In this document: positions 25,550 to 60,320 of the stretch, piece after piece
How positions within the stretch are numbered: position 1 is the stretch's first letter
Layout: each line of letters opens with the position of its first letter
Assembly: GCA_003344405.1 (NCBI GenBank)
Contig: NOWV01000105.1
Location: 186,001 to 250,000 of the forward strand
From: Trichoplax sp. H2
Lineage: Eukaryota
DNA length: 64,000 bases
Direction of reading: 5' to 3'
The notes under the pieces: model-generated
The model's database searches: none
Told to the model about the DNA's origin: nothing
Seen by the model: the letters and a program-made list of their open reading frames with translations, nothing else
Position numbers and translations under genes: made by a program

Positions 25550-25614
25550 TAATTATCGAATAATATTTCATTTTAAATGTAATTTTAATTGAGTGCTATT
25601 TAGCACGTTTCTTA

Positions 25615-32552: not shown

Positions 32553-34449
32553 TGATAAAATCTCTGCTTAATTGTACCATAATAACTAGCGACAAATCCA
32601 GAAATTTAAATTTTAGCTCGAATTGTTTACGTATAATATATGTACAGTATATTGAAAGTGCATTCAAATTTTCATACAATTTTATTTAAAGTTCGTGCTT
32701 ATTGCAGCTATGAACTTCGGCTAATGTAAATCGTTGGCTAACAATACGTAATTCAATCTATGTGGATTTCTGGTTAACTATAGAATATTAGATAACTCTT
32801 TGGTGTTGCCTGTTTTATATGATATTTATAATCCATTGGTTTTACATTTAAAAATCGAATAAAAACAACATAAAACTTCATATGAACTCAGTTAGCGTGA
32901 TAATTGATGGGTAATGATCGAACAATATCATGCTTCTTAGTTCCCGTGGTTCATACGGGGAAAAAGTATGTCTGAATTAACTGTTGCTATCTTCTCCTAA
33001 ATCAAAAGGAGGCACGAGGGTATTGTACTTATTTAGTAAATTACACTAGCATTATAGCAATTAGTCGATCTGTATAGCCGTTCTTTCCTGCAGTAAATTG
33101 TAATGTACTTGAGCTATAGAATGAGAAAGTAGACCAAAAAACTACGATCATTTAGCTACAAAACTACAGCAATTAAGAAGAGACACTTGATTTCTAAATT
33201 AATTGTAATACCGAATTCCTTAACATAAAGAATATATAGAAATAGCCCACAAAAGTTATTTATTTATTAACTAGTATTCATTGCTTGGCGTGTGCAGCAT
33301 AAGTAGCAAGATATAAAATAGGGGCAAGAAATGATCGGCGATGGGTTGCAAAGAATTATAAAATGCAATGCCAAATGCTATTATTCCACCTACTGCTTAG
33401 TAGCACAAGTACTATAATTGTTGAGGTAACTGTTATCACATAGCTATCTTCCTGCTAGCAACCTCTATGTATATCATTTACAGTAAAATTTTCGTATAAA
33501 TAAAGTTTTAATTCAATAAATTTAGCTTTGGTAGAAACTACGCACGCATTTAAATGTTTCTCGTTTAACTGTCCTTACTTGTAAAACAATTTTTGAAAGT
33601 CATTCAAATTGCAGCATGTGTTCAATAATTTGTATTAGTAATTGCTTCTATTAACGATTCTATACTTGAAGATGGACTTATGATCGGTTGACTTATCACT
33701 TCGTAACTGGGCGATCTGAATAATTTCATATATGAGAAATTTACGTTTTTTGATTGTGATACAAATTATACTGTTAGCACTTTCGGTTAGATCTTAACGT
33801 AATTACATTTAAATATGCAATATACATGTAATTATTGATGAAACAGGAAAAAATATACGAATTACCGTTTAAATAGGGAGTTGTATTTAGAAGTCAGAAT
33901 ACTATTGTATCCCTTTTGTATACAATAAAAGTTATATTTTATGAGCTATAGTCCCTAGATCACTCAGTAACTTGGCGTGTAAGGCGGATATAAACTTTAA
34001 TGAGGACAAGTTACTATAATGCAAGCGTAATTTATCTAAATAAGCTAGTGGAACAAGGTACGGAAATTATAATGATAGTAATTTTGGCTTGTGTTTATAC
34101 TGTAGTAGGTGAAAATCCGATAGTTGCAATTAATACTGTAAAGCAGCATTACTAGAATTATTTACCGTCGGATATCAGTACGCGTAGTAGATGTCTTAGT
34201 AAAAGTATTTTATTTATCTATAAACAAGAATAGACAGCTAATGAGTTCTCAGTAATTAAAATTTTTAAAAGGAAATAATTGATACAAGCAAAAGATTTAA
34301 TATTAAATGTTATTTTAAATGAGGTATAGAGTAGAATATGTTTTTGGTCGAAAGCATTAACAGCTTATGGATACACATTCACTAAAACTTTAATTTCCGA
34401 ATTCGTTAAATAGGTTTTAAGTAAACGAATAGAAAATAAATAGTTATCA

Positions 34450-37400
34450 TCAAGGTGACACTGGTGAAACGATAAGTTTCAAAGGCGGATATGGCCGCAT
34501 TGTAATATGCAACTTTCTCTCAATCTGTTGGTTAGGATAAGGTTGGAAAGAAAAATTACTTAATAATAACGATAAGATACACTTCATTTCCGTTAGTGCA
34601 AATTTAGAGCCGATGCAAATTCGCGGCCCTCTAAGAAATGGCATGTATGCGTATGGACTGGTATTCTTGGCTGAGTTATCCCATCTATCCGGATTAAACT
34701 TTAAAGGTTCTTCAAAGTACTTTGAACTCCTAAATATAATATTCATGGTAGCAAAGAAATTTTTTAGTAACAGCCATGCTTTCAACATGTAGACAATTAT
34801 AGTTTTGACATTTACCATCATTCAATTTGTAATATGCACGAAGATATTTATTTCAATATAAGCTTCGAATACAATGATAAAATAAAATTACATGAAGTTC
34901 TTTCACGTGCAAGAATAACTTGCTTTAAGCTCGCTTTACTCTTGCTACGCTTGAGTTACCTATGAGGAGCTAAAATTGCAATTGTAGTTCCTTTGGGGAT
35001 AAAATATTTTCCTAACTTATCATCTGCTGTCGCTTCTCGAAAGGTCAGTGGCGCAGGTGGATATAGTCTAAAAATCAAATATAGATAGTTACTTAGAGAG
35101 TAAAAAGTACATAGAAGAAATAAGGAATTACTCAAAAGACTTTATTGTCAAAATATTAGCAATCAAAGACCGCTCAATAAACAATTTGTAGATATTGTTA
35201 TAGCAGATTAATAACCTAAGGGACTCTTTAATAACGTTCTCAAGGAACGGTAATTCGTCGAAAGTACTCCATGTTATATTATCACTTGGTTGTATAACCT
35301 TACAAATTTCTTTACGCACTTTCTCTTGAAGTTCAGGGTTGCTAGCCAATGCATATAATGTCCAAGTTAATGCCACACTTGTAGTCTAGAACAGATATCA
35401 TATTTATTATATTATAAAACTTTAAGGAACTCTCGTTAAGTAAAAGACTCCATAGCTCATTTTTTCAATTTAATAACGGCAGTATAATTGTATACTTCAT
35501 AAATTGTAATCTTACGTTAAGCGACAGTCCTAACCTCATGACCAGCAGCCATAAAAGTCATAATTTGATCCTGTAATTCTTTACCAGTAAAGCTAGGATT
35601 ATTTTCTTCATCTTTTAGCGAGAGTAAAATATCTAGCAAGCATTTTTCTTCATCTACAACAATATTTAACCATTTTTTAATAGTATTTATCTAAAATTAT
35701 TAAACAATCATTATAATACTAACGTTTTAATATAATATTCAATTTCAGATTAAAATAATAAAATAGTTTGCATACCAATAGGCCCCTTCTCTAATTTTTG
35801 GTTAATTACTTTCTTGACAGTACTATGACAAATAGATAAAGCACGACTTCTTTCTCTATTGCTAGATGTAGGTAAATATTTAAAGCCTGGTACCAAATAT
35901 GTCCAACTAAAGAGTTTAAAATTAAAAATTGCTAGGTATTTAATGAACTTATTACTAAAATATGTGTAATACACGATACGTAAGGTAAATACAAATGCAA
36001 ATACATTACGAGACCAACATTTTAGCAGACAATTTCTTCTTCAATTATTATTATGATATAATTTTCCAAGATACGCTTATCAAATACTTACTTTAAAGTA
36101 AGGCCTCCAATAATCTTCCTGAAGGCAACCGATACCTGATTGTTCTCATTTGTTAATGAATTACAATCGTAATCAAATGCACATTTGCATATGATATCTA
36201 GGGTGATTCGAGCAAAGTCTTGATGTACATTCAACGTAGCTTTTTGGTCACCGCGCTCGTCGATTTCATTTTGCCAGTAATTTACCAAGAGTTGGGCAAA
36301 ATTTTGAAATACTGGTGCCATCTCTGGTGTAACAAACAGAAAATTAGCCGATGCGATCTATTACAGGTAAGGAGATATTACACATGAGATAAGATGTAGA
36401 ATAGTATATTTCTATACGTTACTCAAATCTAATGTAATATGCAGCTACTGTCCAATTTAAGATTTTGAAATGAATAATATATTTTAGACATCTTTAACTC
36501 GCAATGACTAAGAGATAGCATCGAGTTGGTTTGCTGTTAAGTATCTACCCTAAAATAGATATTTTACCTTTAATTTTATTATATTTAAATGTTGGATTAA
36601 TGATTTTCCGAACTTTAGCATGCTTTTGCCCTTCAAGCAAAAGCAATCCTTCACCAATAAGATCTCCTAAGAAACTGAAATGAAATCCTGAGAGTTATCA
36701 CTATACTATCATGCTATTTTAATTTTGTATGATAATTTCTAAGCTGAATAAAAGACAAGATGCCGACAACAAGCATACAAAGTTATAACTTACGCCTTGG
36801 TGCGTAAAGGTTTACGATATTTAGTACACTGCGTCACCAGGACATGCTTGATATACTCTGGATCAGTAATGGCGACCCGTTGGGAATAAATCGGAAAGCA
36901 GTAACGAACGATGCCCCCGTGTTGTTCGCTCCATCTACAAGTAAGATAAAAGAGAAAAGCTAATTTCAGCAAGTATTTAGTACTAGAGAGAAACGAAGCA
37001 ACTACTTATTCTCATTCACAAATTTACGAAATTAGCATAAGACTCTTTGGATGTAGCTTGTATAGTAGACTAAACATTAACTTTACAATCATCTATGATT
37101 TTATAGAAGGATTGATAAATATATTTCTTGACAAAGGGAAATTGATGATGATATTCATAGGATATTATCTCAAGTAAGTAGAATAGATGTTGAGGTCACG
37201 TAAAAATACGATGTACACAAACTTGTATCTTGTTTTATATTTAGAAACTGTTGAATACTAACTGTAAATAAGGATCGCCAGGTGGTTCTTTCATAATAAT
37301 GAGTAAATGCCCCAATGGCGACCATGTTGGTAGTCCAGGAATCTAAAACGATGATTTACGAGTTTATCATATCAACAAACGAGGTAAACGACTATCAATT

Positions 37401-37801
37401 TTTGACACCATCTATCGTAGATTATTTCATTCAAGCCGACTCTAGACTCTTACAAGCAAGATCAACATTGTCCATGTTATGTTATACTTACTGCAAACAT
37501 GCACAGAATCAAATGGCAAGGCGAGCAACGTTAGCGATTAATAAAGTTAGTCATAAGGTATCCAGATCGTGCGATCTCGATGTAAACTATTTGCTACAAA
37601 AGTAACACCATGGCAATTTCAAACATAACCATGCATCCTTGTCATACTGTATTATCGTCAGGTTAAATCGTTTTTTAACATCCACCTTACCTTATTTAAC
37701 GGTGAGACTAGCTTGGAAATGAACTGCTTGATTAAATAAGCAATAGTAATGCCTACGATGATAGAAAGCCACGTCAAGATATCAAGGAGAAAAGAAGCCA
37801 T
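34450..37801 (-). CDS. Cytochrome P450 paralog C, intact, 10 exons, about 492 aa
   Basis: Exons (minus) 37801-37691, 37342-37263, 36934-36794, 36674-36568, 36323-36092, 35906-35776, 35653-35535, 35385-35216, 35067-34960, 34729-34450 total 1479 nt. Same intron positions and phases as paralog A. Motifs AAGHETT, KESLR, FNPDRW, FLRGPRICIG. Confidence 0.93.
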
Positions 37802-37844
37802 TTCATTACTCGTACAACAAAGAAACAGGATTTTGTCGTATTTA

Positions 37845-38090
37845 GGATAAACTACCTGATTTAAGGATGAAAAAGGTCTACTTAAAGTAGCATAAATTGC
37901 TTGATCATTGGATACAAAAGGTGTATTTAGCGGGAAAGCTGCCTAATTATATGTATTGATGCTAACAGTATACTGTATTCGATGTAAACTGCCTGATTTT
38001 AAGAAGCAAATGGTAGATTGAGTATAAACTGTTTGATTTGGGGATGTTTATTTAGTGTAAACTGCCTTATTTTAGGATACAAATGGTAAT
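37845..38090. repeat. Degenerate tandem array, about 6 copies of TAAACTGCCTGATTTTAGGAT..AAATGGT
   Basis: Copies start near 37848, 37893, 37935, 37985, 38025 and 38058. Confidence 0.6.
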
Positions 38091-38345
38091 AGTGACCCTC
38101 CCCCTAGTACCAAGCGAATTTTCATCGTCGTTTCTATTCGATTTGTATGAAAAAATTGGACTGACTGCGTAGTATAATTTGCTGTATGTTGCAGTTTACC
38201 GTATTTGATAGTATATCATACTGCACTTAAAGTCCTCTAAAAAACTGAATGGGATTCATATTGACATCGGAGATTCTGCTAGATCATTATTCTGGAATCT
38301 TTGACCATAGACATGGGGCACTATATCTAAATTAGCTTGATTGAG

Positions 38346-41300
38346 ATAGCATCGTCTCTGCTCAATATATTGACCAGGCTTTCCGTCATCATCGCTCTTG
38401 TTATTGCCTATATAGCCAAGTAATTGATCTTCATGATATGGTCGCCATTAAATAAGGTAAAGCTGCATGCATTGGTCAGACTTGCAAATTACGATTTGGC
38501 TTATGCTCTATGAATTGGAGCATAACTGGTTAACAGAAACTAGAGATTGAATGGAAGGATCATTAGAGCAATTCGTCAGTATCTAACACTGTTTTCCAAC
38601 TTGAGGAAATTTTCCCTGTTCTTGTACTTTCTCACTTGGTGCTACTGATTGCATATTGGAAACATATTTACCTACGTCCCTTGGAAAAAGTATCACGAAT
38701 AGTTATCATGATGACGAAATTGTTGTCTAGTTTGTGAGCAGTGTACAATAAATCTACAGCCAACAAGTTTAATTTTCAATTGTTGACTTTCTTCGCTATG
38801 AAATAGAATTAAAGCTTACAACAGTTTTATTTAACCATACGTGCAGTATAATTGCTTATAACATAAATAGTACAAGTAGACCATTTCATCATACCAGCCA
38901 TCATCTGCAACGACTTTATTCAGCACAGCAGATTCGTCTACATTATGTAGTGTAGGCTTTGAATTATTATAAGACTTCCATTCTACATCACTATTGTAGT
39001 TAACTGAAAATCTAAAATCATTCTATCATCGTTTATAATTTGAGGTTTTTTAACAAGTTGTAACACCTACATGATAGAAACTGGAATAGAATTCAAAGGA
39101 TGAAAGATATTTTCTAATAGTAATAATTCATCACCATCTCAAATGACTCAATGGTGCCGGAGACCTTTCAGTTTTCTCTTAATAAATCATAATCTATGCT
39201 CGTAACAGGATAAATAACATTTCATATTAAAATGAGATGCTACTTCAGCCAGCTGTAAGCCTTCTTGATAGAATAGAAATGTGCTTGGAAGGCTGTAGCA
39301 TAATCCAGGATCTACCGTTGCAATATAAGCTAACTTTGCACCCTAGGATCAGCATCTCGACTCATATTCCGTAAAATTGTTTACTATCGTCTCAATGGAA
39401 TACAGCTTGAACTTGCCACAAACTTATACAATCCTTGCTATTGGTTGTCGCGTTAGGAAACTCTAGTACCTACATGATTACTTTATATCTTTTTATAATG
39501 CAAGCAATTTATCGTTAAGTTGTAATCGGACTTTACACACCCTGATCTCATCATTATCGTCAAAGACTTGTATCTGTAACAATGCGTACTATAACTATCT
39601 TATCCGCTGACAGCCTGAGTAATTATCAGTAACTACCCTGCTAATAAAAGTCCTTGCTTCATCCTCAATCTGTCTCTACAATCTATGTGAATTAAGACAT
39701 AATATCAAGGTATCAAACATTGTTATACAACAATTGCAATTTATCGCTGCTTGTGGTAATGTATCTTAAATCAGAAATAATCAAATTCGATAGCTTAAAA
39801 TGTTTTGCTTATCACATAAATTACTTCTTCAACTAAGAACAAGACTAAATAACTCTTGGAGAAGAGATCTCGTGCTTCTATACACTATAATGATTCAACT
39901 ACATCTAGATCGGTAATCTCTAATTTATCTTTATCAAGTTATTCTCATAGTCTCTGATGTCCAACTACCTACTGTAAATAGGACATTCCTAATCCAAGGT
40001 ACAATATTTACTATAACTATTTAGCACGGATATGTATCAATCTTACGTATTTACATATCACCTAGCAATTTCATATAATCTGTCAAGGTATTTCAAGGAC
40101 TGCAATACATTGCTTTAACGAACTGTAAACTTGTATGATAGATTACGAATGTCCTTAATTAAAGGTTGTAGCTTACAACTTCTTGTATTAACAGAGGCTA
40201 AATCGTAGCATTACAAACTCTCGTAAATGATGGTATTGTTAATGTTTTCCCTTTATTAATGCACTTTTGGTTAACATGATTGTGTTATTATTATTATCCC
40301 ATTAGGTACCTAGTCCTTCAACATAGTGGCCTTTCGGGGCATTTACCTATTCTTTTCAGAGAACTACCAGGCGATCCCTTCATCATGTTCGTATTTACTG
40401 TACGTATTTGTATACATCAACGTCAAACATTTTGTATTTCTGTAATATCATATATTACCTACTTTAGACTATGCAATACACTGGAGCTATATCGAAGCAT
40501 AATAACAATTCGTCAAAGTTCATAAAATGATAGTCTTCATTGATCATTTTAACATGTTATAGCTGTTATTAAAATCAAAATTTAGTTGATGGATGAATTC
40601 TATCATGGGAACATTGTATTAGCCGATTTTTATTTTCTCAAAGTATTGAACAAAATCCTCTTGCCTAAGTCCAGATTTTCTAATTTCAGATGGAGTCAAC
40701 AATACGGAGGAATCATCCGTTTATGTTTCCTTTTCTATAGCCAACAAATCGCTGTAACTGACCCAGAATATATTAAGCATGTCTTAGTTACACGTATTGA
40801 TAATTACCGTAAGCCTACACTGATGAAAAGGTAATTAAAAAGTATGGATACTGATAAAATTTCGTGTTATTTTCAAGATAAAAAATTGGCAAATTTTTGA
40901 TGCTGGGATTTAACACCGAATTTGCTTTCATACTAGCTTCGTAGTAAATATTCTTGGCGAAGGACTTATCTTAATAGACGGTGAAAAGCATACTTCTGCT
41001 CGTAAAGTTATAAATCCAGCATTTAAATATAATAAAATTAAAGGTAAAAAGAGGTGGTCTTAAAGCTATCTAGTTAATGGTAAAAAATTTTCTAATAAGT
41101 ATCGCTTTGATACTTTCTCAGTAGTTATCTAAGATCTTATACCTTTAAAGCTCTCATATAATTTCAAAGCTGCAGTATCACTAAATAAAATATGTAAATA
41201 TTAGACTTGAACATTTTGCAAATAAATATGTCATACAATTATGTAATTTCAGTTTCGTGACTGGGAAAAGATCTTGAACTGTATTCTTTCTGTTCGATGC

Positions 41301-41533
41301 TAGAGTTGGTACCCATTTTTCAAAATATTGCTCAAGATTTGATAAATTGCTGGCAGAATATAATTAACGAACATGGCGGTCAGAGAGCTACTTTGGATGT
41401 TCATAACGTTTTATCGCGAACGACGCTAGATATTATATGCAAAATGTCCGTTTGATTATCACTGTAATTTATTAACAGATGAGACGAATGAGTTTGCAGT
41501 TGCATTTGTAAAGATTTCAGGTGGTTTTATGTA
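38346..41533 (+). pseudogene. Cytochrome P450 paralog D, truncated pseudogene (exons 1-5 only)
   Basis: Exon 1 38346-38456 (ATA at the start position; TAA at 38421); exon 2 40306-40386 (TAG at 40324 plus a 1-nt insertion); exon 3 40690-40830; exon 4 40937-41043; exon 5 41304 to about 41533 (frameshift at the A-run 41441-41444). No exons 6-10 seen downstream. Confidence 0.88.
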
Positions 41534-44500
41534 ATAATATCTTCTTTAAGTAGCGTAAAGTATTTTAAGGTAGACGATGATAGAAGGTATAAAGGATTTT
41601 ATTGAGATACAAGTTACAGGCTAACAATGATATGGTTGTTATAGATAAGGTATTTGAGATAGCAGGAATGTAGGAACTGACTAACGAGTTAGCGTACAAG
41701 GGTATTTATAGGTTTTAGATGGGATTGAGATAATGTCTTTATATGTATAGCATGTCGTCTATATGTAGTCATGATGTCGTACATTATGAATGTAATATAA
41801 TACAGTACTTAAACGGTATATGATAAATATTCGTATATTAGGATATTACTATACTAGGCATCTTCTATATAAGATCATAATGTTACAGTTTTACTGTGGG
41901 GTAAGTTTAGGATACGTGTCTTCTAGAAATTTAGATCGCATTAATGTCTTATCGAGATTCTAATCTTTTAAAATATGATATGATACGATTTTACATATTC
42001 ATAAAGTTTTTGCAATGACGTATATTTGAGTTACCGCTCATATCTTCCCAACACTTTACTACTACAGTATAGAAAAAGACGGATGCTGTCTAAAATTAAA
42101 TGGAAGGTATTCGATTCTGTATCGACAAAGGGTTAAAAATAGTGATAAGCCATAACTCTACTTACGCCTGAATGCGGTAGCGCAAGCGAAAAGAGCAATA
42201 ACAACCAAGATCTTCATGATAGCTTGAAAAATGCAAATAAAAAATGAAAATTAGTACCGTATCAATATACGTGCATCTTTAAAATTAATTATAAATAATC
42301 GAGTTAGCACAAGTAGTGCGGCTACAAAAAATCGTTATACAGATTCAAAGGTTATCATGAGAAATTCTAAGCGTATATTAACTACTACAAATGGCCAGAT
42401 AGGTATTTGGTCATCGTCGTATTCGTCTAGATCTTATAGTATGATAAGGATCAGAGATAATATGAACGGGAAAAAGTTCACGGTACAAACCACCGCGAAT
42501 GAACTAAATTTCATGAACTGTTATGACTAATACATGATAGCAGCTGCCGAAAGGTATTTGAGGTTGTCTGATACTTGAATAAAAGAAAAGTTCTATAGTC
42601 GTTTAACGTAGGAGCAAAGGCGATTAAATTCTAATGAGATAGTTAAGGGAAACTAAATCCTGGAAACTATAGTAATTTAGAGATTTGTTTTACGTTATCT
42701 TTTCTACGAAGCTGGTTTGTGATAGAAAAAAATCTATTAAATTTATTACTTCTAGATAAGAAAATAATATCATAATTGCTAATGATCCTTACCAGATGAA
42801 TAGTTATCAGTCCTAACCAAGAAGTGATAAAAGTCAGCAGGCGATAAGCACCAATATTTATAGCTTTTGGAACAATGAAGGAATGACTCGTCAATTAACT
42901 TAGATGGGATAGATTTCATAAACCAATATTGATCAATGATTTGTTTATTTGTTATTTATTTCCGTTCTATGCCAGCAAACCAACTAAGCAATACGAAGTA
43001 CGCTTTAATTTCCATCGATTTTAAAAGAGTTATTTATCTATGCAAATGTGCGCAAAGGTCGTATGCCATAAGTAGTAATTGTTTATTGGTTAAGCGAATT
43101 TTACATTGTTAGCGGAATCTAATGGCGAAATAAATTATATTGTTAATCAATCCCGACAACGCTTAAATCTACATTATGAACACGCACCATAATTTTCGTA
43201 CGTTAGAAAAATATCAGAGTATAGTAAACAATTTCTACCGTAGTTAGTGGGAGTAGAAAAAAGGTGTCGGAAATAACCTCATCTAAATTGTGCCAAGTTA
43301 GTTTTGCAATAAGGAAATTAGTTATTAAATAGATGAGATGATATGAAAAGCAGGCTTGAAGTAGTAAATCAGACCGTAAGATAAATAGTATAAGTTCAAA
43401 AGCTCACACAGTCTAGGAAGGTTAGATTAAAATTTTTTCCTGTGGGGAAATTAGGAATTAAATTGAAAGAATGATAGAAAAACAAATAAATATCATTTCC
43501 GCGTATAGATAAGTTAATATCTATTCTGAATATATTGCATAGATAACGAATTGTATGAAAGCAAAATATAAGGTAATGACTAGGAGTAATTTAAAAATAC
43601 GTTTAAAAAAGTGCTATTGATTAAGGAAATGTATAAAAGAAGATTTCCAACTCAAGAATCGGAACCGTTGAACGATAAAAAGTTTGATTTATAAGCGTTG
43701 CTTAATCTCAAAATGAATTTAAAGATATCTGATATTCAAATCATCAACTAGTCAAGACTATGTCCTCTAATTTATTATGTGGCCGCCCATGCCTTTATGA
43801 AAGGAAGTGTAAATAAGGTAAAAGATTATGATTCCGGATATAAATTAAGTAAACACATTAACGGATATTGAATAATATCAAGTCAATCAGAAGAAAGACT
43901 AATGATAAAACTTATTACCATCGGACTTAAGATGATATAAATATTAACATAATCATTAATCATCATGAAGAGCTATCTAGGACTAAAATTATACTAAGTA
44001 TCATTTCTGAATTATAGGCTACAATTTGCTATTCATGAAGTGCACATGAATTGTAAATAGTATGCTTAAGGTTAGGCAACGTTTTTTTACATAATTTTTA
44101 AATTAAAATAATAATTATCGATGCGACTGTATGATAAGGTATATTACGTTATTGTGGTAAATAAAACATGCGATTTATATGATTTACTATTAATGCAACG
44201 TACAGTAATTTTGTAGCTAAATCACTTTAACCATCTGATTCCATCACAGCGATAAAGATTACCAAGTGAAGCTGATAAGTACTTCCATATTTCTTCTTAT
44301 TACTGACTTTATAGTAATATCGTCCAGATATCTAATTAATAATATGAATTCCGGGCAATCATGAAAAATTTCTATATCTATCTTATGATATAATGCACTG
44401 GTCTACTAAGTTGATTGGCGTTGTACGACCTATTCTAATTCAAATCATGAACTTGCATAATTATTTCCGATAACTTTCTGGCAGGAAAGTTCGTAGAAAA

Positions 44501-48551: not shown

Positions 48552-50958
48552 TCACTTTTCAACCTACGGCCATGTTGGCTACATAGTTGGATCAATCTTT
48601 AAGTCTGCGCGTGAAAAAAAGTAGTTATGTGAAATATAGTACTGTTACGGCTCTACGTTGCCTAAATAATAGTTTAAGAAAGATTATTGGTGACAGTGTT
48701 TCTGCATTATAGTATAATAATTTAGGGTTGTTATTACTAAATTGCACTATGATAGGGACACTTTGAAACAAGGCGGAGATTAAGGGATAACACCGATTTA
48801 TTTATTATATTTTATCTATCAAGCCAATCACAGTAATCAGTGAGTCTTGCAAACAAGTATAACATTATACTGGTTGACACAATCCATCCACCACCACTAA
48901 ACTAATTTAGATTTATTTACGAGCTATGACATTAAAATCTTAAATTACGTTACCGTTCATCATTAAATCTACCGAATGAAAGAAAATACTCTATGAAGAA
49001 GAATACTAAATATTAATGTTCATTATAATAGTATACTAGTTGAGAGCCTTTTGGAATGGTAGTTCTTAGGAGTTATAGTAGCAGTACTATATTCTGACTA
49101 GATCTTTCGACAGATTAGGGGAGTAATTTGTAGAGGTAACTCAAAGTAAGTTCTTTACATTAGACTAGTGAACTTGTCAGGAAGTAGTCTGTGACAGCCA
49201 CATACTTACATTTATCAGCTATTGTAACCACTAAATTAACCTTCAACTTACCTTATATAGGATTACTTCAGTAGCTTATAACTCGGTAGGTTACGTCGAT
49301 AATATTATTAAACGGAGATATGTTTTATAAAGGTAGGTAGGAAAGTTTGGAATTCAATCAACTGTCTTTATAGAACATTTATAGCATAATGTCAAATCAT
49401 TTTCAACATCAAGTGGACATCATCGATTAACGCTGAATTGGAAGCACATCATGCAGTCCATGGACTCAAGTTCTCCTTCTTTTATCACTTGCTTTTAATT
49501 TATTAATACAATAGATTAGATAGACTGTAACGATGTAATGATGATGCCAATGAGATTTTACTTAAAAGTCGATTTCATTCGCAGCACTACTAGACGCATG
49601 CAATGAAAAATGAAATTGTCTATTGCCAGATTAAGCTAAATAATCAAGGCAATAACAGATGTTCATCATACACATTAGCAAATCTCTTAGTATTAACCAA
49701 CTTAAATACCATAGTACAACTGACATTAAAGCTATTTCTGCATGCTTATCATTGCAAGCTAAATCTTTGCAGTGAAAAGACTCATAAGATCAAAATTACT
49801 TAAAGTACAATATCTGCGATTCGTTAACTGTGCCATAAATGCAGCCTCATAGGACCACCTGCTAGAATAATTTCATAGTTATCAAGTTTTCGTTTTCTAT
49901 AGCAAGATCGTAAGCTGCTCGATATGAAATTCACAATACCGAGGTATAATTTAAGATTCCAAATATACTAAAGTTATAAACTTCATTTTTCGTTAAGCTT
50001 TTGCAGTTCCATGATGTTTTAATGACAGATGAGCTTCGTCATTCTACTAATTAATTAGTCTAAAGCTAAATTCGAACAAGGTGGTAAGTTGGCTCCATCA
50101 TTGCTATAGCATTTGCTTCATATCGATATTGACAAGCATTCTTAGTCATGTCTTATGCATGATTTTTTTTTAAGTAGATCATATCAATCAACTTATCCTG
50201 CTTGTAAATATATCATTGTTACAGCCATATTTATATTCCATTATTTATTTATCTACTGATTAAATTCGTCAATTTATCAAAATTATACTTGGCTACTTCG
50301 CAGTATTACACAAAGTTATTTTACTTAATTTACTATACTATGAATTGAATGCATTACCCAATCGTTTCGCAATTAAGGCTACATTAATGTCAGCTCCTGA
50401 TACTCAATAAACGGTATAAACCTGGATAAATTATTTGTTATGCTTCTTATTAGTCACTAATCTACTGTAAAATACTTGATGATATTCAATTACATTCGTC
50501 ATGTTTATTATTGTTTAGTAATTAATGTAACATTGAAATTTTTGTAATATTAAATTACATGATAGAGTAGTCAAGATACCACATCAAAAACTGCTCCGGT
50601 TAAGCTATACAATTTAGAATCAATGCGATAAACTGCGTGAGATAAATTGTAAAAATTATCCAAATTCGACTTAAACACCTGCAACACTGGTTAATTCAAA
50701 ACTACATTCCGCTATAGCGATTAAGTTTAAAACATCGATACTACTTGATTACCTGTGCCTCTTATTCGTTAATGTTAGAGTCATGCAAAGTTTAATTACT
50801 ATATATTAAAATAGTAGACGATTCCTTCGTCAATAGCTAGTTCTGAGCTCTTATATTGTAGAATAGCAACATGTCTCCATGAAAAACTGTAGGAAAAAGG
50901 TGTATAATCAATTATACTGGGATAACTCATAGCCATTACAAGCTTCTCTTCCATTCGG

Positions 50959-51216
50959 CTATTTTTCTTCGACTTGGTCAGCTATAGCATTGATTTTCAT
51001 CTTACGTAAAGCTGCAACTACTACGGAAATATCAGCATCTTGCCCGACGTTATTTTTCCACAATATCAGAACTTTGTACACTTTATTGTAACGGTTATGT
51101 TCTCTACTTGAAATATCTTCAATTTCTACTTGTGGCGAATGAAACGAGATTCACAAACGAAATAAATTGTCTATATTGAGTCGGTTTGCTATTATATCGA
51201 AGCACCTTATATCCAT
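50959..51216 (-). pseudogene. Death-domain exon with one in-frame TGA (absent from the ORF track)
   Basis: MDIRCFDIIANRLNIDNLFRL*ISFHSPQVEIEDISSREHNRYNKVYKVLILWKNNVGQDADISVVVAALRKMKINAIADQVEEK*, with TGA at 51151-51153. Death-fold pattern L..W......A.I..v..AL.......A. Confidence 0.75.
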
Positions 51217-51596
51217 TCTTGTATTAAAATAAAATTGAAAACATGAACTAGTCTTCAAGTCGTCAAGGTTGCATCTGATCTAGCACGCACGTTTAGCAAT
51301 AATATTGGGAAATTTTTTTCGTAACTACTGCAATTTTAAAACCTATGATATGTTATAAAATATAAACTACTACAAATACTGCTTCTTAGGATTTTTAATC
51401 GTCACTTTTGCGTTGAATCAATTTGAGCATTATGAATTCCTATAGAAAGTCTGCTAGATAATCAATCTTAGAACTAATTAAAATCTGAATTAACTCATAA
51501 AAAATTGCCTATTATGAACGTATTTTATGGGTAGTTAGCTAACCTTATAAAGCTTATTAAATAAACAATCCTAAAATAAATTATGGTCGTAAATTT

Positions 51597-51768
51597 AATT
51601 CATAAATAATTCTTTAGTCAGTAAATTAGTTTACTAGTAGCTAGAATATTCTAAATACGGATCCTCAAATTCGTTGATGATATCATTAGCTAACAAAACT
51701 GTACGCGATCATATCATCAGTGACAAAAATAACTGAAAGCGCTACTTCAATTCAAGAGGTAAGGTATT
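51597..51768. repeat. Diverged duplicate of 55518-55689 (linker block upstream of each Death exon), offset 3921 bp
   Basis: Colinear shared strings aattcataaat, ttactagtagctagaatattcta, gatatcatta, aaaactgta.gcgatcatatcatcagtg, gaggtaaggtatt. Confidence 0.85.
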
Positions 51769-53225
51769 TAAGTCTAGTTGAGTGCCTCATTACAATTTGC
51801 TAACTTTTGCCTTAATTTCACTCATAACGTGTTACAATTTTAAAGTATACTGTATTCATATTATCTACTCTTATAAAATTTAATTTATATCATCAGTATA
51901 ACTATAAGTCCGGGTATCAAAAAAATACTCAAAGCTTATCCCATAATCTCTCTAGTTAACGTTATGATTAAGGCCCCGAAATAGTTTCATGGCTAATGAA
52001 CAGCAGTCATCATTATGATTCTTTTCTAAACAGATTTGAAACTTTATATCGACTGTAAGCTATACTGTAGTTCCATTTAACAGCACTATAACAATGAATG
52101 CAAAGTCTTACTCATTTAATTTTCATTTTATGGCGGAGCCTAGTTACGTAATAGTGTCCTGAAGTTTTTAATTACCATGTAACGCCTTGACATATAACAA
52201 TTTAAATTTTTGTGCATGCCGCTTTGGTTAACTTAAATGAGATTGCTAGTGAGCGTACTTAAAACATGAATTCAGATTAAGTTTGTGATCTAATTAGGAG
52301 CTGTGATGGAGGGTTCGATATCTCAGAGGATTGAGATTTAGTCGCCATTTACAATTATTACAACAAAGGGTTTATAAAAGTTATGCTTTATTGTAGGTAA
52401 GTAATGTGAAGTATAGTGAGGTAATTACGGTAGATCAGCGTGCAAGCTGTCGTGAGTAACGAGTAGAAGTATTAGACTGTGAGAGACTAACTAGAAGACT
52501 AACTGAGAGACTAATGAACTATGAGGTAGGAATCGCCGGTATTTATAGTTTTAAAGATAGAGCACATTTAAGAGTAGAATATAGTTACAGTATATTCTAA
52601 ATACACTACTTCTAAAGACTTCTTGAACGAACTAACAGGATAATCTAAAGTTGCATGCTTTTATACTTTCCGTAGCATTCGCAGCTACAATCCGCATGGC
52701 AACCTTTACCTTATTTTACACATAGTTAAATTATTCTTAGTAAGACTATTCTACTGTGGACCATCATTAATCCAATATGGATACGACTACAGTACTTACG
52801 TAGACATTATTCACACCAGCCAAAGTACAATGAATTAACCATATCCTAATATATGATTTACAGTTCTATTTTTACCTATAGCCATATTAGTAACTCAACA
52901 GCTTACTGTATATAGTCATCTGTACTCTAGCATAGAGTCTCTACCACTACAGTCTATAGTTACAGCTACCAAATATCTCTTAGGATAAATATCTACCGTA
53001 CATTATACTACACATGGCTAACAGTCTACAATCACAATACTAAGTTACATTACAAGAGGCTATGGTTGCAGATTGAAAACATGATTACAGATCTGTACTG
53101 ATTATTAAATATTAAGTGAGCAAAAGAAATGCGCGATTAATAAAAGTGTAGTAACAGTCTAATCCGATACGTATATAATAAATTAAATGATTTCGATGAT
53201 AAAATGTTACCGCACAACGTATTTT

Positions 53226-53879
53226 CTAATCAAATTTGAAAGCTGGATTTAGTCTTGACTGCTACTTTTGCAATTACTGCTGTTATTTTGCTGCCACTAA
53301 TTGAACAAGTGGATAAGATTCAACACATAATTTTATTTTACCTGTAGTGTAATAGGAAAGTATATTCGAGCTATTAATCATAAGTAGTAAAAGCAGTGAC
53401 AAGTTGTTACAAGTCTAGCCAATAAATTCATGACTTATAGTAACCTGGAGAGACATGATGCATTCTTAATTTACGTTCAGGTTGACAATGCTTAGGCCGA
53501 AGCCAAGTTATTACTTTTATTGAGCCAAGATAGAAGCACAACAAACGCTCTATTAATAAAAGTGCTATACTAATCTAATTCAATACCTGTATAATAGAGT
53601 ACGCGTAGGTATTTCGATAAAACTACCGTATAGCGTATCCTAATCAAATTTGAAAGCAGGTTTTAGCCTTGTCTGCTAACGTTGCTAATGAGCCAACAAG
53701 TGGGTAATAATACAAGCAATATTATTGCCAACAAATAATACTATTGTTCCTTTAGCTTAAGGGGAAAGTATTTTCAGATTATAAACTATAAGATGTAGAC
53801 GTAATCCCAAGTCATCAGAAGTCCAATGAAAAAAATCAAGGCGTTATGATATCCTGGAGATACATGATGCATTCCTAAT
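53226..53879. repeat. Diverged direct duplication of about 245 bp (53226-53470, 53640-53879)
   Basis: Shared ctaatcaaatttgaaagc, aacaagtgg and cctggaga.acatgatgcattc.taat at about 410-bp offset. Confidence 0.7.
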
Positions 53880-54922
53880 CCAATGTATCCATCGACATCA
53901 AGTAGTTATCTGACACTTTGACGTGCATACGAGTCGTATTGCAAGTTGACTCAATTCAATCAGACAGTGAACTGCAGTAGTATAGAGTATTTCCCGAAGT
54001 CAAGTTTATAATTGGGTAAATATCAAGTTACAACTCAAATGTCAAGTTAAGGTTTAACACCTTGGATTGTAAGAGCTATTATATATTTACTAGCTATGGC
54101 AGCCTAAATCGATAGATCAATGTATACTTCTACACGTTACTGCGCTTACGTTGCTGACACAACTGCATACAAGTACGCTAATGCTAGACTATCCAATATT
54201 CAAGTTAAAAGATACACTTCAAAATTAAACAAATACTACTACAGTAAAGAGTACATCGAAGCACCATGACTTCTATTAATTTGTTATTACGCAGAAATTA
54301 CGGACATAAGGCAAATGAATCATATTTTTAAATTACAATAGCTGTTTCTGCTTCTTAGTTAGCGGCTTTATACAATACTATGCCATTCTTGTTATAAAAA
54401 ATCAAATGAAGTTAAATTTCGAACTATTTATACATCATGTAATACTTCAACATTTCACGTCTAATGGCGATAAAACTGCAACATAGAAAATATAGCCATT
54501 CTAGTTTATTGATTATTGTAAGCAAGCCAACAAGAAATTAAATTAGGACTATCGATCAATTAAAAATTTTTTAATTTTTAGTATTTAATTGACATTTTTA
54601 ATACTATAGTATAACGCTGTGTAAAACTGACAACCATCTATAAAATTAAGAATGTTAATCCAAATTACTATTAGTTTGCTGGGAAGTTTAAAGTCTACTT
54701 GTAAAATTATCGTAAGCTGAAAAGTAAATAAGCTTGTATTGTATTCCCTGTTTTTGAAGGGTTATCTGTTAGGATAGTTAAATTAATTTAGAAGAGTAAT
54801 TTAAGAAGGTAAAGGCATTCTATAATAATTTTGTCTTGGCGCATATTTTATAAGTTCAATTTAAATGTACGATAAATTATAAGCTGTATTGAAGATGGCT
54901 TTGAGGATAGGCTGTTTGCACT

Positions 54923-57900
54923 CTAGAAATTTTGTTCGTTGTTTTCTGACAGAATGATGTCATTCCTACCAATAGTTTGCAAAGCCCGCTGCAATCGGCT
55001 AATGCTAACATTGGGATGTGCCTTTTTGTACCAGTAATTGAGCAATTCCATTGCCTGGTTAAAGACATGGTCGCGATTTTGTTCCATTATAACCTTAACA
55101 CAAATCGTTGGATCTAGGATGGCCGCTAACTGTGGCCAGTCTGTGCCAATAGAGCTTGCAATAGGGTAAAAATACTTCCTAGGATCTACATAGTACAAGT
55201 AGAAACTTTACTATGAAGTACTATACGAGTATGTTGTAACAATTTCAATTGCAAATAAATTACTTGATTTTACATGATATAAAGTACAATATTTACATAA
55301 TGAGCTCTTATGTCGCAATTAGAGTTGAATAATCATCTGGTTCGCTATAATTATTTATGTAATGGTAATAATGGCATTAGCGATAGCACAGGTGGAACTG
55401 TACTTCTATTGTAAGACTAATAGAAATAAATGGCTCTAATTCGAATTTGAATAACTCTGTAAACGAACTACTTACTGGACAAACAATGTACAAATAAATT
55501 AAGATTGAATATTTTTTAATTCATAAATCATTATTTATTATGTCAAGTAGCTTACTAGTAGCTAGAATATTCTAATGACGATCTTAAAAATTCGTCAGTG
55601 ATATCATTATCTAGTAAAACTGTATGCGATCATATCATCAGTGGCAAACGTAGCTTAAAGAATTACATCCATTGACGAGGTAAGGTATTCCTATGTTAGA
55701 ATTTACAAGGAGTAATTGCTCTTAATCATATTTGAATCGATCTACAATTGGATTACTAAATGCAATTGAGAATGATTGATAGATATCAATTCAATAGAGG
55801 TTTACCTTCATCTTTGGTATCTTTCCATCGGTCTAAAGTAGTGGAATAAAAATAGCAATAATCGATTAATAGTTCTATCGTTTAAGTAATCAATGCAGTA
55901 GATTAGTGCCCATAATTTTTGATAATAATCAACTATTGTTTACGCTATTACAAAATCACCTTACATTAAATAGTAAAATAGCTATGATACAGTACATTTA
56001 TGTCTCTTTGCTTGCTCTAGCGTATGACTTTAGTTTATTATATCATAAAAAGTGATAATATAAGAATGAAGCTGCTGTTTATTCTCACATGCTTACCTAT
56101 CAAGAATTTTTCATTATAAATAATCCAATCGTTTAAAGATTGACTGGCAAATTCCATCTTACAATGCTTACATCGAATCCAATTTTGATCTTCTTCCTTG
56201 TATTCTTCAGTTATACTTGTTTGTGTATTACATTCACTACATTTGACGAAATATCGACAATCGGCCCCTTTAAACTTAACCATCCTATCATTGACAGTAG
56301 AGATGAGTTTATTCTTGACAATTTCGTGTGGCCGTTTGACAAATATAGAATTTGTAACTTTATCGATAATCGATTGACTCCTCTCGGGCTCATTTATTTT
56401 CTGATAGCAATATTGTAAACCAATATGAGATTCCTCTTTCTTGACTACAAGATAATGATTGTCATTTGCTAAATAATATTTGGCACATTGATAGTATAAT
56501 TCTACGTCCGTATTATTCCATTCCTTTAAACATGAAGATAACAAGCAATAATAAATTCCATCTGGAAGATATGGAATATCTGTATGCTCGTATCCGATGT
56601 AGAGCCAATCTGATTGATGATATTTTGATAAATCAAATGGCTTAACATCATATCGTAACAAATATGGAACAAAGTATTGACATTCTTCGCCGTTGTCGTT
56701 CTTCTCATTTGTAATTGAACATAGAATATCATAAGCATGCATGAGTGCCAATATAGTTTGCTTACTATTGTCATCTAAATTAAATTTATAAATAGCATGA
56801 TCAATGTATGATCTTGATAATTTTCCTCTTTGGCTTGCTATCTCATAGTCACGTTTTATCTGTGCACCTCCTTGTACAAAATCTTGTAATTGAATAATAG
56901 AACGAAATATATTTAATAACCAATCGACATTAGTTATAATAATTCCGTCGTCGCCTACTTTATCACAGTAGATGACTTCTCCTAAATCGTGTAGATACAT
57001 TAGCATAGCGATTAATTCATCATGGTTTTCATATAATCCGTATTGTTGAGACAAGTTTACTATTTGTTGCATTGTCATAATATTATGCACTTGAGAATGT
57101 CTAATTTGATTGATAATAGAAGATGCGGGTTGATTGTTACTGTTAGTAGGGAGCGATTTATTTAATATTCTAGCCATGATATACCATCGAATAGGTATAG
57201 GATTCGTAATAAATGGCAGCGATTGTACAAATGCCTTAATGATACCATGTAAACGAAGACAACATTGTCGACGCTGCTCTAGTGTCGACGGAGTACTATC
57301 AAGAGGATTGCAATTAAAAATAATACCAGAAGAATAGATATGATTGGCATAAGAAGGCATGCGAGACGTCAATGTAGACACAAATTGATTGAATCGAGTA
57401 CGTCCATTTTCTTCATTGATAATACAATCGCCATGAGAAGCTACTAAAATAATAATAGGTAATGAATGCTGTGAAGGTGGTAAATGCTGTTCATCTTCAC
57501 TTTTAATGTTGACATTGATGGTACTTTGGCTTGTATGGCCAGCTATGATTGATGTAAGCCATTCTTGCATAGCTTGTAAATACGTCGTTTTGAGTAATTG
57601 GTTGTTCCTTGTTGTTACCTTGTCGTTAATGTCTTGATTAATATTAAATACTAAAATATAAATACTATTGACGGAGATAAAGGGATAATGAGTAAGATGA
57701 TAGACGGCATGACCTGCGAAATCCCATATTTTAACATACTGATTGTTTTCGTCTTTGTCTGCATTTTGATTTTCTATTGGATCTATGTCGGTTACTTGCT
57801 GACTGATGTTATCTTGACTATTGATACTTGTTTGGGCTAACTGTTGTATGACTGTCTTGACTTTATCGTCTAGTATTTCAGTCCAATCACAACCCTCTAA

Positions 57901-60320
57901 GTTACGAATATTATAATATTCGGTCTCTACCATAATATCCAAATTCTCAGCCACTTGTGTCGGAGATGGATTGTCTAGTGGTTGCTTGGTAAATATTTTT
58001 CGAACAGAAGTTTTGCCCACATTGCGAGGACCAATGAACATGCCTCGTATTAAATGATTAAAGCAATGACCATGTTTTAATGCTTTGCTATATGCATTGT
58101 AATATTTCTTTTCTTGCAAAGCTGTAGAACAACAAAATACAGAATAGGGTTACGGTTATCCATCGCTCTCTCGTCTACTACTGTATTAAAACTCCAATTA
58201 CCTTTCTCTTGTACGTGTTGATTGTTATGACTGCCGTCAATAGTATTTGCTGGCGCTGTAACGTTGTTGATTTGATTCGGTTGAAACCGTTCAACGGTAC
58301 TTTTGATCCAATTTCTCGCTGTTGATGTCGACGATTTCGGCTTCCGGAGAGTGATATCGATATTCTTTTTGGTCCATTTAACTAGGCGATCATTTCCGCT
58401 TAAGGTTGCGATATACAGTGACTTCTTAAAGTTATCCACAGCCTGATCGTACTTGCCTTGGCGACGATAGACAAGTCCTATGTTGTTATATGACTTCGCA
58501 ACGTGGGGATGATTGTGACCAAGGACTGACAATCGAATTTGCAGTGATTTGTCATACATATCCACAGCCTGATCGTACTTGCCTTGGCTTTTATAGACAT
58601 TGCCTATGTTGTTATATGAGTTGGCAACATCAGGATGATTATGACCAAGGACTGACAATCGAATTTGCAGTGATTTGTCATACATATCCACAGCCTGATC
58701 GTACTTGCCATGGTGACGATAGACAACTCCTATGTCGTTATATGAGTTGGCAACATCAGGATGATTATAATCAAGGACAGCCAATCCAATTTGCAGTGAC
58801 TTGTGATACATATCCACAGCCTGATCGTACTTGCCTTGGCTTTTATAGACATTGCCTATGTTGTTATATGAGTTGGCAACATCAGGATGATTGTGACCAA
58901 GAACTGACAATCGAATTTGCAGAGATTTGTCATAAATATCCACAGCCTGATCGTACTTGCCTTGGTCATCATAGACAAGTCCTATGTTGTTATATGAGTT
59001 GGCAACATCAGGATGATTATGACCAAGGACAGCCAATCCAATTTGCAGTGATTTGTCATACATATCCACAGCCTGATCGTACTTGCCTTGGCTTTTATAG
59101 ACATTGCCTATTTTGTTATATGAGCTGGCAACATCAGGATGATTGTGACCATGGACTGCCAATCCAATTTGCAGTGATTTGTCATACATATCCACAGCCT
59201 GATCGTACTTGCGTTGGCTTTTATAGACATTGCCTATGTTTTTATATGACTTCACAACATCAGGATGATTGTGACCAAGGACTGACAATCCAATTTGTAG
59301 TGACTTGTCATACATATCCACAGCCTGATCGTACTTGCCTTGGTCATGATAAACAAGTCCTATGTTGTAATATGAGTTGGCAACATGGGGATGATTGTGA
59401 CCAAGGACTGCCAATCCAATTTGCAGTGACTTGTGCAACATATCCACAGCCTGATCGTACTTGCCTTGGTGACGATAGATAACTCCTATGTTGTTATATG
59501 AATTGGCAACATCAGGATGATTGTGACCAAGAACTGCCAATCGAATTTGCAGCGACTTGTCATACATATCCACAGCCTGATCGTACTTGCACAAGCGATC
59601 ATAGACAACTCCTATGTTATTGTATGACCACGCAACATCGGGATGATTATGACCTAGGACTGACAATCGAATTTGCAGCGACTTATCATACATATCCATA
59701 GCCTGATCGATCTTGGCTTGGTCATGATAGACAATTCCTATGTTGTTATATGACTTCGCAACATGGGGATGATTGTGACCAAGAACTGACAATCCAATTT
59801 GCAGTGACTTGTTATGCATATCCACAGCCTGTTCGTACTTGCACAAGTCCCAGTAGACGCACCCAATTTGATGATAACTATCGGCAAGACGAGCATCCTT
59901 TTCGTCTAACCATTTTAATTTCATTTCCAACGATTTCTTACCGTCTTCCAGTGCTCCGTTGAAATCCCCTTGGCGTCTCTTAATCTCGCTTTCTCTTTGT
60001 AAACATTGAGCCATGCTCACTTCATCTTGCAGTTTAGTAGCCACAGTTTGTCCCTTATCACTCCATTCAACAGCTTCCTTGAATTGATATTGTAAAGTGT
60101 AAATGTCACAAAGACCAAGATAAATATCACATGCAAGTCGATCAATATCCGCACTAGGATTCGACAACGAAGCAATCGCATCGACAGCTTGTGTATAACA
60201 AGATAGTCCGTCCACCAACTGGAAGGCAGTCTTGCATGAGATGCCCTTTTCGTACAGTGATTGTATACGGGTATGGTGAGGAAGCACACTCGTAGAACAG
60301 ACAGATTCATCATCAGCCAT
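54923..60320 (-). CDS. TPR-repeat ROCO protein: TPR array, Roc GTPase, COR, CxxC..CxxC, Death domain (about 1480 aa)
   Basis: Exon 60320-58202 joins exon 58121-56097 in frame across an 80-nt GT-AG intron (EK|ALQEKKYY). Roc motifs: P-loop GPRNVGKTS, G3 IWDFAG, G4 VASHGD. COR: PIPIRW, LHDLGEVIY, WLLNIF. CSEC..CKHC. Probable phase-1 microexons 56016-55996 and 55832-55806. Terminal exon 55185-54923 is a Death domain (IGTDWPQLAAIL..QAMELLNYW..LQRALQTIGRNDI). Confidence 0.85.
58410..59885 (-). repeat. Intragenic tandem array of 126-bp (42-aa) TPR units, 11 complete plus 1 partial
   Basis: Consensus ANSYNNIGxVYxxQGKYDQAVDMYDKSLQI(G/R)L(A/S)VLGHNHP(D/H)V; unit starts are exactly 126 nt apart, from 59885 to 58499. 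Confidence 0.97.

What the first reader, a model, noticed from the sequence alone, without database searches (positions are those of the whole stretch)
50959..55689. Second linker-plus-Death cassette 3.9 kb downstream: alternative or swapped effector exon
Seen: the block 55518-55689 inside the last intron region of the ROCO gene is duplicated colinearly at 51597-51768. Each copy is followed about 300-400 bp later on the same strand by a Death-domain exon, but the two Death domains share little sequence. The downstream one has a single TGA (51151-51153) and has no Roc-COR of its own. Inference: either alternative terminal exons letting one sensor couple to different adaptors, or a relic of effector-domain swapping where a conserved intronic block serves as a recombination anchor.
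Basis: partly seen in the sequence, partly recalled or inferred. Interest (0 to 1): 0.7.

Follow-up and report, generated by a model that had tools for sequence, protein, structure and literature searches.

The report
Orphan death-domain tail, tail-swapping receptor family
The second death-domain exon is a broken leftover, likely of a deleted neighbouring gene, and not an alternative ending; but near-identical copies of this placozoan signalling gene do end in three different death domains (and one likely in a CARD domain), likely exchanged by recombination inside introns, with untested effects on signalling.

Summary
Observation confirmed. The block 55518-55689 recurs at 51597-51768 (81%), and each copy precedes a Death exon (25% amino-acid identity).

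Alternative terminal exons are not supported. The second exon has a TGA and has lost its in-frame acceptor. The one RNA joint that seemed to reach it fits the intact paralog on contig C250 as a clean GT-AG intron. The cassette is colinear with whole paralog tails (76% over 1.2 kb). In a sister copy (C190) the same spacer runs into the next gene's 5' end. So it is most likely the 3' end of a deleted tandem paralog.

The swap reading is right for the family. Five TPR-Roc-COR genes that are 95-98% identical in DNA carry three Death types (22-48% identical between types), and the same micro-exon is also spliced to a CARD exon. Switch points lie in phase-1 introns around the block. The block is ordinary paralogous intron, not a specially conserved anchor.

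The family was described in 2014 and effector shuffling is known in other receptor families. This scan already reported Death-tail swapping on other DNA of this genome. Added here: the CARD tail, orphan tails, and a used splice donor inside block 1 (one contig).

The parts
58202..60320 (-). TPR exon of the intact TPR-Roc-COR-Death gene (126-nt repeat array 58285-59970)
   Evidence: Pfam TPR_12 x12; repeats; intron 58122-58201 joined in RNA contigs of X9 and X15; deposited model P0001, 1477 aa
56097..58121 (-). Roc-COR exon, ends with a phase-1 donor
   Evidence: Pfam Roc E 1e-10, COR-A E 4.8e-11; the equivalent COR-to-micro-exon intron is spliced in 4 of 4 runs laid on paralog C250
55806..55832 (-). 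27-nt micro-exon, phase 1 on both sides; the last exon shared by bodies that carry Death type 1, Death type 2 or CARD tails
   Evidence: sequence; P0001 and P0002; RNA joints and loose ends
55518..55689 (-). Block copy 1: intronic, non-coding; contains an alternative donor (exon end 55556) used in one RNA contig
   Evidence: the X9 contig of 1314 nt maps 55740-55556 and then 55185-54085 (read together, coordinates matched)
55186..55471 (-). Rest of the last intron, downstream of the switch point at 55471; shared only with sister copy C190
   Evidence: alignment; genome search; weak traces of an older second block copy (E 3e-4 and 2e-3)
54923..55185 (-). Death exon type 1, intact terminal coding exon; 3' UTR reaches at least 54085
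   Evidence: Pfam Death; micro-exon joined to it in X15 (13 loose letters); P0001
51789..54922 (.). Intergenic spacer shared with C190 at 95-97%, interrupted by a high-copy repeat at about 52302-53054
51769..51788 (-). Inferred deletion junction: spacer on one side, paralog intron on the other
   Evidence: C190 matches down to 51789 and then runs into the 5' end of another TPR-Roc gene; C250 matches from 51768 onward
51597..51768 (-). Block copy 2: first surviving part of the orphan tail's intron
   Evidence: 82% to the C250 block and 81% to block 1
50959..51217 (-). Death type 2 pseudo-exon: ancestral acceptor lost (51218-51221), TGA at 51153-51151, early TAG
   Evidence: 62% to the intact C250 exon, 68% to C58:257457
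49214..50958 (-). Downstream flank with patches homologous to the flanks of intact type 2 and type 3 paralogs
   Evidence: 67-76% patches against C250, C448, C945, C345, C190, C506, C156 and C58:256676-256948

Best explanation
The cassette at 50959-51768 is a non-coding Death pseudo-exon with part of its intron, likely left when a deletion removed the front of the next gene in a tandem TPR-Roc-COR-Death array; near-identical genes of this family end in different Death exons (one likely in a CARD), likely because ectopic recombination in their last two introns swaps the tail in frame. Shown: the lesions, the colinearity with intact paralog tails, the discordant body and tail trees, the switch points, phase-1 junctions at each tail examined, and spliced micro-exon joints to three tail types. 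Inferred: unequal crossing-over or conversion between array units as the cause; that the window's own gene is the recombinant (a C250-like body and block, then a type 1 tail from 55471 on); that the block recurs simply because it is paralogous intron. Untested: any signalling function, for example a TPR sensor, a GTPase switch and a death-fold output that recruits different adaptors.
For: Pseudo-exon: micro-exon plus the only available AG gives a stop four codons past the micro-exon, whereas micro-exon plus Death exon 1 is open and equals P0001. Colinearity: orphan vs C250 is 83% in the block, 77% in the rest of the intron, 81% in the exon and 81% in the 3' flank; 76% over 1193 nt. Deletion: C190 shares 52301-51789 at 95% and continues into a TPR-gene 5' end. 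Two other tails lack a Roc-COR body: C345:7765 follows a TPR fragment while the same tail type is part of an intact gene at C58:250850, and C448:1956. Swap: five bodies are 95.0-98.2% identical over 1.2 kb of COR DNA and form one clade (99/99), but their Death exons fall into three groups on both sides of a 100/100 split; the AU test rejects holding them together, p 2.6e-111. Switch points: 55965 (type 3), 55711 (CARD), 55471 (type 2). RNA: micro-exon to type 2 as a canonical intron in 3 of 4 runs, to CARD in 3 of 4 (8, 8 and 26 loose letters), to type 1 in 1 of 4. Two ZU5/UPA-like genes with the same upstream part carry type 1b and type 2 tails (C802, C945).
Against: The assembly has 1128 contigs with gaps inside several of these loci; some near-identical bodies may be alleles or mis-joins, and no long read was available. 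The C190 gene that stands in for the deleted paralog is itself broken and sits across an N gap. The RNA joints are short (27-30 letters a side), so they tie tail to micro-exon, not to a named gene body. The CARD locus is cut by its contig end 9 nt into the micro-exon, so its Roc-COR body is inferred. The orphan region is covered by RNA contigs (X9 depth 84.5, X15), unspliced across the acceptor and of unknown strand, which a silent relic does not predict. No close donor for the type 1 tail was found (next hit 63% amino-acid identity).
Confidence: 0.82

Rival explanations
1. Alternative terminal exons: one Roc-COR transcript chooses Death exon 1 or Death exon 2 in cis.
For: Same strand, 3.9 kb apart. 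X9 has a joint 55806->51217 at depth 39.4, and the orphan exon is covered by RNA contigs.
Against: The same contig (depth 39.4) maps to C250 as a clean CT..AC skip with no letters between, also in X12 and X14. It lacks the two variants (51202, 51205) that X9's own copy of the orphan carries. The orphan's acceptor is out of frame and the TGA is present in X1 and X15. Limits: only 4 of 21 listed runs were laid on the window, contigs drop rare forms, and 5 joints were not shown.
Confidence: 0.04
2. The block is a dedicated, selected recombination anchor or splicing element that sets where tails are exchanged.
For: Two switch points lie within 50 nt of it (55711, 55471). The orphan begins at its 5' edge. 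On C345 and C802 a switch at 55545 leaves two tandem copies of it. It holds a donor used in one contig.
Against: Among whole-tail paralogs it is no more conserved than flanking intron: C506 vs C345a, C190b, C156 and C58:257 gives block 69/64/69/90%, preceding intron 65/64/66/89%, following intron 66/65/67/88%. The type 3 switch is 276 nt upstream of it. C186 and C448 carry Death tails without it. No Rfam match overlaps either copy at E<=5.
Confidence: 0.12
3. No tail moved: old paralogs kept their tails while long gene-conversion tracts homogenised the TPR-Roc-COR bodies and stopped in the last introns. The outcome (same body, different tail) is the same; the direction of transfer differs.
For: Tails of types 2 and 3 are colinear over about 1.3 kb at about 65%. 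The C156 body (70% to the window's COR) carries a type 3 tail that is 78-80% identical to those of C345a and C190b, as expected if the latter received a new body. Upstream spacers are also 92-96% alike among C58, C250 and C345.
Against: It does not by itself explain the CARD graft, the tandem double blocks, the ZU5/UPA-like genes with captured tails, or the orphan tails. It probably acts alongside crossing-over and is not exclusive of the best explanation.
Confidence: 0.3
4. The body-tail combinations are assembly artefacts among near-identical repeats or uncollapsed alleles.
For: Fragmented assembly with N gaps and local duplications at C190 and C34.
Against: Independent RNA runs from three studies join a window-type micro-exon to type 2 and CARD exons, and a fourth study joins it to type 1. 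At least five bodies exist, more than two alleles can explain. The orphan itself is present at 98-99% in contigs of X1, X9 and X15.
Confidence: 0.05

Closest known systems
Trichoplax ROCO expansion (Civiero et al. 2014, PMC4104024; passages seen, figure not seen)
   Same: At least 17 ROCO genes with Roc-COR surrounded by TPR, CARD and death domains. The window's gene is a deposited model named 'Nephrocystin-3 [Trichoplax sp. H2]' (P0001).
   Different: The passages seen do not describe near-identical bodies with exchanged tails, intronic switch points or orphan tails.
Effector-domain shuffling in sponge and other invertebrate NLRs (PMC3879445; passages seen)
   Same: Effector type (death or CARD) does not follow the phylogeny of the nucleotide-binding core; domain shuffling is invoked.
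   Different: There the switch is a NACHT ATPase and the effector is N-terminal, inferred from trees. Here the switch is a Roc-COR GTPase, the effector is the last exon, and the switch points can be mapped because the bodies are 95-98% identical.
Domain grafting in lophotrochozoan RIG-I-like receptors (PMC8998645; passages seen)
   Same: Sibling paralogs gain or change death-fold domains through exon-intron changes.
   Different: A helicase family with N-terminal domains, mostly by exonization or exon gain and loss, not exchange of terminal phase-1 exons.
Brown algal ROCO exon shuffling and alternative splicing (PMC11378527, passages seen; PMC3341825, search listing only)
   Same: A ROCO family in clusters that diversifies through same-phase exons and is proposed to be immune receptors.
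   Different: What shuffles there is the N-terminal LRR sensor (phase 2), with real alternative splicing; here it is the C-terminal death-fold output.

Membership tests
ROCO protein (upstream gene) | Roc GTPase directly followed by COR | tested here: met
   Pfam Roc 42.3 bits and COR-A 43.2 bits, both above cut-off, in one exon
ROCO protein (upstream gene) | GTP binding and hydrolysis, dimerisation | not testable with these tools
   no assay
Alternative terminal exon (orphan exon) | In-frame acceptor and open reading frame | tested here: not met
   acceptor shifted by one base, TGA inside, early TAG
Alternative terminal exon (orphan exon) | Spliced reads from the upstream exon to this exon's own sequence | tested here: not met
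   the only candidate joint fits paralog C250; 4 of 21 runs laid on the window, contigs only
Truncated tandem paralog (pseudogene remnant) | Colinear homology to intact paralogs across intron, exon and 3' flank, with an abrupt 5' edge | tested here: met
Truncated tandem paralog (pseudogene remnant) | Relaxed selection on the coding part | tested here: inconclusive
   long end branch of 0.30; dN/dS 0.89-1.04, but intact pairs gave 0.69, 0.78 and 4.17 on 85 codons
Intron-mediated exon shuffling / effector swapping | Body and effector trees disagree | tested here: met
   (AU p 2.6e-111)
Intron-mediated exon shuffling / effector swapping | Switch points in introns of equal phase | tested here: met
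   55965, 55711 and 55471 are intronic; phase 1 at Death types 1, 1b, 2, 3 and CARD
NLR (NACHT or NB-ARC receptor) | STAND ATPase core | tested here: not met
   no NACHT or NB-ARC hit among the families shown; the core is Roc-COR. Works-like analogy only
Known structured RNA (block) | Rfam match | tested here: not met
   4 hits at E 2.8-4.6 in 50500-56500, none on either block copy

The most novel reading that the evidence does not exclude
Placozoans run a germline mix-and-match receptor system. Homogenised TPR-Roc-COR bodies with variable repeat number exchange phase-1 Death and CARD tail exons with each other and with ZU5/UPA-like adaptors fast enough to differ between isolates. Orphan tails such as this one persist as a reservoir that can be recaptured, and a donor inside the block can switch a gene to a Death-less isoform.
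Probability: 0.2. Interest if true: 0.72.

Novelty: new variant of a known kind. Interest (0 to 1): 0.43.

Why it matters
The orphan exon alone is an ordinary pseudogene remnant. Its value is as a footprint of recent tail exchange. It shows, at base-pair resolution and in a very simple animal whose NLR-type genes lack LRRs (PMC6321704, passages), that the death-fold output of a kinase-less LRRK2/DAPK-type GTPase family is exchanged among almost identical genes. Natural pairs with the same switch and different effectors would allow a clean test of whether Roc-COR activation drives death-fold assembly, and of whether the tail sets the partner.

Tried and rejected
(1) Block as a coding linker or 55-nt exon: frames have stops, a 55-nt phase 1-to-2 exon would end in a stop at each Death acceptor examined, and its splice signals are not kept in C345a, C190b, C156 or C58:250.
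(2) Block as a snoRNA: a C-box-like motif caught my eye (label recalled), but there is no Rfam hit.
(3) X9 joint 55806->51217 as proof of alternative splicing: reassigned to a C250-type paralog.
(4) dN/dS on the 85-codon exon: uninformative.
(5) Search for a close donor of the type 1 tail's intron: only C190 matched the intron; four other hits covered the exon start alone, and local scores against C186, C58:250, C250 and the orphan did not exceed shuffles.
(6) In one search, the block values for orphan vs C58:257 (40%) and C345a (44%) and the row C506 vs C250 are end-gap artefacts of my cuts and were not used; orphan vs C506 (block 62, rest of intron 56, exon 81, flank 59) lies close to the shuffle baseline outside the exon. 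Shuffled introns score 51-56% with this aligner, so values under about 62% mean little.
(7) The C945 upstream ORF had no Pfam hit and no PDB hit; the ZU5/UPA label rests on the Atlas feature search alone (scores up to 0.96, low recognition value).
(8) X1 joints 51421->51871 and 52074->51768 hint at other haplotypes or paralogs rearranged at the block, but they have short sides (28, 40) and were not followed.
(9) Literature searches found no paper on tail exchange among placozoan ROCO genes; subscription papers, figures and supplements were not seen.
Full report
OBSERVATION. The duplication is real: 55518-55689 and 51597-51768 align at 81%, offset 3921, and the match extends to 210 nt at E 6e-44. 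Both downstream exons are Death domains and are 25% identical. The TGA is at 51153-51151. No TPR, Roc or COR remnant lies between the two cassettes or down to 44000.

THE UPSTREAM GENE. It is an intact four-exon gene: TPR exon, Roc-COR exon (donor after 56097), a 27-nt micro-exon (55832-55806) and Death exon 1 (55185-54923). The deposited model P0001 is 100% identical and is named from Trichoplax sp. H2. The last two introns are phase 1. The block lies in the last intron and has stops in all minus-strand frames, so it is not a linker exon.

THE SECOND EXON IS BROKEN. Intact type 2 paralogs (C250, C506, C58:257457, C945, C448) read AG then AAATG at the acceptor. In the window that AG is lost and the only AG lies one base further on, so splicing from the micro-exon stops four codons past it. 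The exon also has the TGA where paralogs encode glycine, and one A fewer near its end. The X1 contig over 50698-51423 has 6 other letters and the X15 contig over 50861-51201 has 3; all are listed, and none falls on the TGA or (for X1) the acceptor. X9's contig has one difference that was not listed, so it cannot be scored.

THE ONE JOINT THAT SEEMED TO FIT. One search (4 of 21 listed runs laid on the window) showed 55806->51217 in X9 at depth 39.4 with one letter between. Laid on paralog C250, a contig of the same depth is a clean canonical intron with nothing between, and X12 and X14 show the same joint (3 of 4 runs, three studies). That contig also lacks the two variants of X9's own orphan allele. 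It therefore reports the intact type 2 paralog, not alternative splicing here.

WHERE THE CASSETTE CAME FROM. The orphan matches C250 evenly through block, intron, exon and 3' flank (83, 77, 81, 81%), and flank patches match other paralogs down to 49214. On the other side, contig C190 carries a 97% copy of the window's gene and spacer; it matches down to 51789 and then continues into the 5' end of another TPR gene, exactly where the window jumps into the block. Contig C58 holds at least two more such genes just beyond the window (COR at 252224 and 259023). The simplest reading, which is an inference, is a deletion of promoter, TPR, Roc-COR and micro-exon from the last unit of a tandem array. 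Similar bodiless tails exist at C345:7765 (after a TPR fragment) and C448:1956. Caveat: the C190 gene is itself broken and crosses an assembly gap.

TAIL SWAPPING IS REAL IN THE FAMILY. A COR query gave 60 matches in the genome (loci held for the first 30). I paired 18 of them with a nearby same-strand Death hit for which I held sequence, and added 5 tails without COR. Five bodies (window, C190a, C345a, C190b, C250) are 95.0-98.2% identical in DNA and form one clade (99/99). Their Death exons are type 1 (window, C190a), type 3 (C345a, C190b) and type 2 (C250), with 22-27% identity between type 1 and the others and 46-48% between types 2 and 3. The AU test on the 18 Death exons rejects a clade of the five (p 2.6e-111); the group was defined from COR, but I had seen the Death tree first. 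Identity to the window ends abruptly at 55965 for type 3, at 55471 for type 2, and at 55711 for a locus at C250:128706 whose next two exons hit the two halves of Pfam CARD in order (E 0.006 and 0.003, each below cut-off alone). RNA contigs join a window-type micro-exon to that CARD exon in X9, X12 and X14 and to Death exon 1 in X15 (the loose letters were located). The CARD locus is cut by its contig end, so its body is inferred. Two ZU5/UPA-like genes (Atlas lead only) share a 50-nt piece of the window's intron and part of the block and then carry different Death tails (C802, C945).

WHAT THE BLOCK IS. A genome search found 7 places at E<=0.01, and a more sensitive scan of held loci found weaker copies at 65-71% in C345a, C190b, C156, C58:257, C58:250, C325 and C945. 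It is paralogous intron. Among whole-tail paralogs it is not more conserved than neighbouring intron. C250 and the orphan stay colinear past the block while the window and C190a diverge at 55471, which suggests that the window's own gene is the recombinant. C345b and C802 have two tandem block copies, and the window's post-switch intron shows weak traces of a second, older copy; this fits out-of-register exchange. So the block is a stretch of homology near which exchanges happen, not a demonstrated anchor. One surprise: an X9 contig of 1314 nt (depth 11.2) reads 55740-55556 and then 55185-54085, so the GT at 55555 inside block 1 is a used donor. If the upstream intron part is retained, a stop follows seven codons after the micro-exon and the product lacks the Death domain. 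This rests on one contig in one run.

MECHANISM. Shown: anatomy, lesions, discordance, switch points, equal phase, spliced joints. Inferred: unequal crossing-over and conversion among tandem units homogenise bodies, exchange last exons in frame, and leave orphan tails. From general knowledge of death-fold signalling (recalled) and by analogy only: TPR sensing, a Roc-COR switch, and homotypic recruitment through the tail. Nothing functional was tested.

WHAT IS KNOWN. The placozoan ROCO expansion with TPR, CARD and death domains is in PMC4104024 and is restated in PMC11378527 (passages seen). Effector shuffling is known for sponge NLRs (PMC3879445, passages) and lophotrochozoan RLRs (PMC8998645, passages). 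PMC6321704 has no whole-word mention of COR in its main text (supplements not read). Six searches returned no paper on tail exchange in placozoan ROCO genes; figures, supplements and subscription papers were not seen. Earlier notes of this scan report the same swapping on other DNA of this genome; I formed my reading before opening them, and they are not independent support.

VERDICT. The cassette is a pseudogene remnant (about 0.85) and alternative terminal exons are unlikely (about 0.04). The tail exchange that it points to is real, and is a new variant of known effector-domain shuffling. Interest 0.43.

Noticed in passing
window 55556/55555: Alternative 5' splice site inside block 1 joined to Death exon 1 in one X9 contig; it would give a Death-less, possibly NMD-sensitive transcript.
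   Followed up: partly
window 50250-51556: RNA contigs of X9 (depth 84.5) and X15 cover the orphan exon unspliced and skip 50737-50860 with non-canonical ends; X1 has no such skip. Strand and nature (antisense transcript, deletion allele) are unexplained.
   Followed up: no
window 52302-53054: Very high-copy repeat (summed contig depth up to 314,000 in X1), replaced by 30 other letters in C190 and in an X1 contig.
   Followed up: no
window 53119-53879: Old tandem duplication of about 410 nt at about 68% identity, also present in C190.
   Followed up: no
window 58285-59970 and paralogs C250, C345, C190: TPR repeat number differs strongly among near-identical bodies; a crude motif count gave 11, 4, 3, 7 and 13 (the last across an N gap).
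   Followed up: partly
window 22500-41500: Four related multi-exon genes, one inverted; translations of the first show motifs typical of cytochrome P450 (ExxR and the FxxGxRxCxG heme motif; labels recalled, no family scan).
   Followed up: partly
L112-L118 (C250, C756, C457, C633, C186, C425, C531): Seven related CARD first exons; six have upstream introns unrelated to the ROCO intron, and the C425 copy is frameshifted and interrupted by an insertion.
   Followed up: partly
L008:8545 loose ends in X9 and X12: A type 2 Death exon is also spliced to a different upstream exon; the closest match among held loci was in L096 (C527).
   Followed up: partly
window 42127-43973 and 49706-50193 vs C506: C506, which ends an intact type 2 gene, shares patchy homology with the window's downstream region in the same order, so it may be an old duplicate of this array end with the gene intact.
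   Followed up: no
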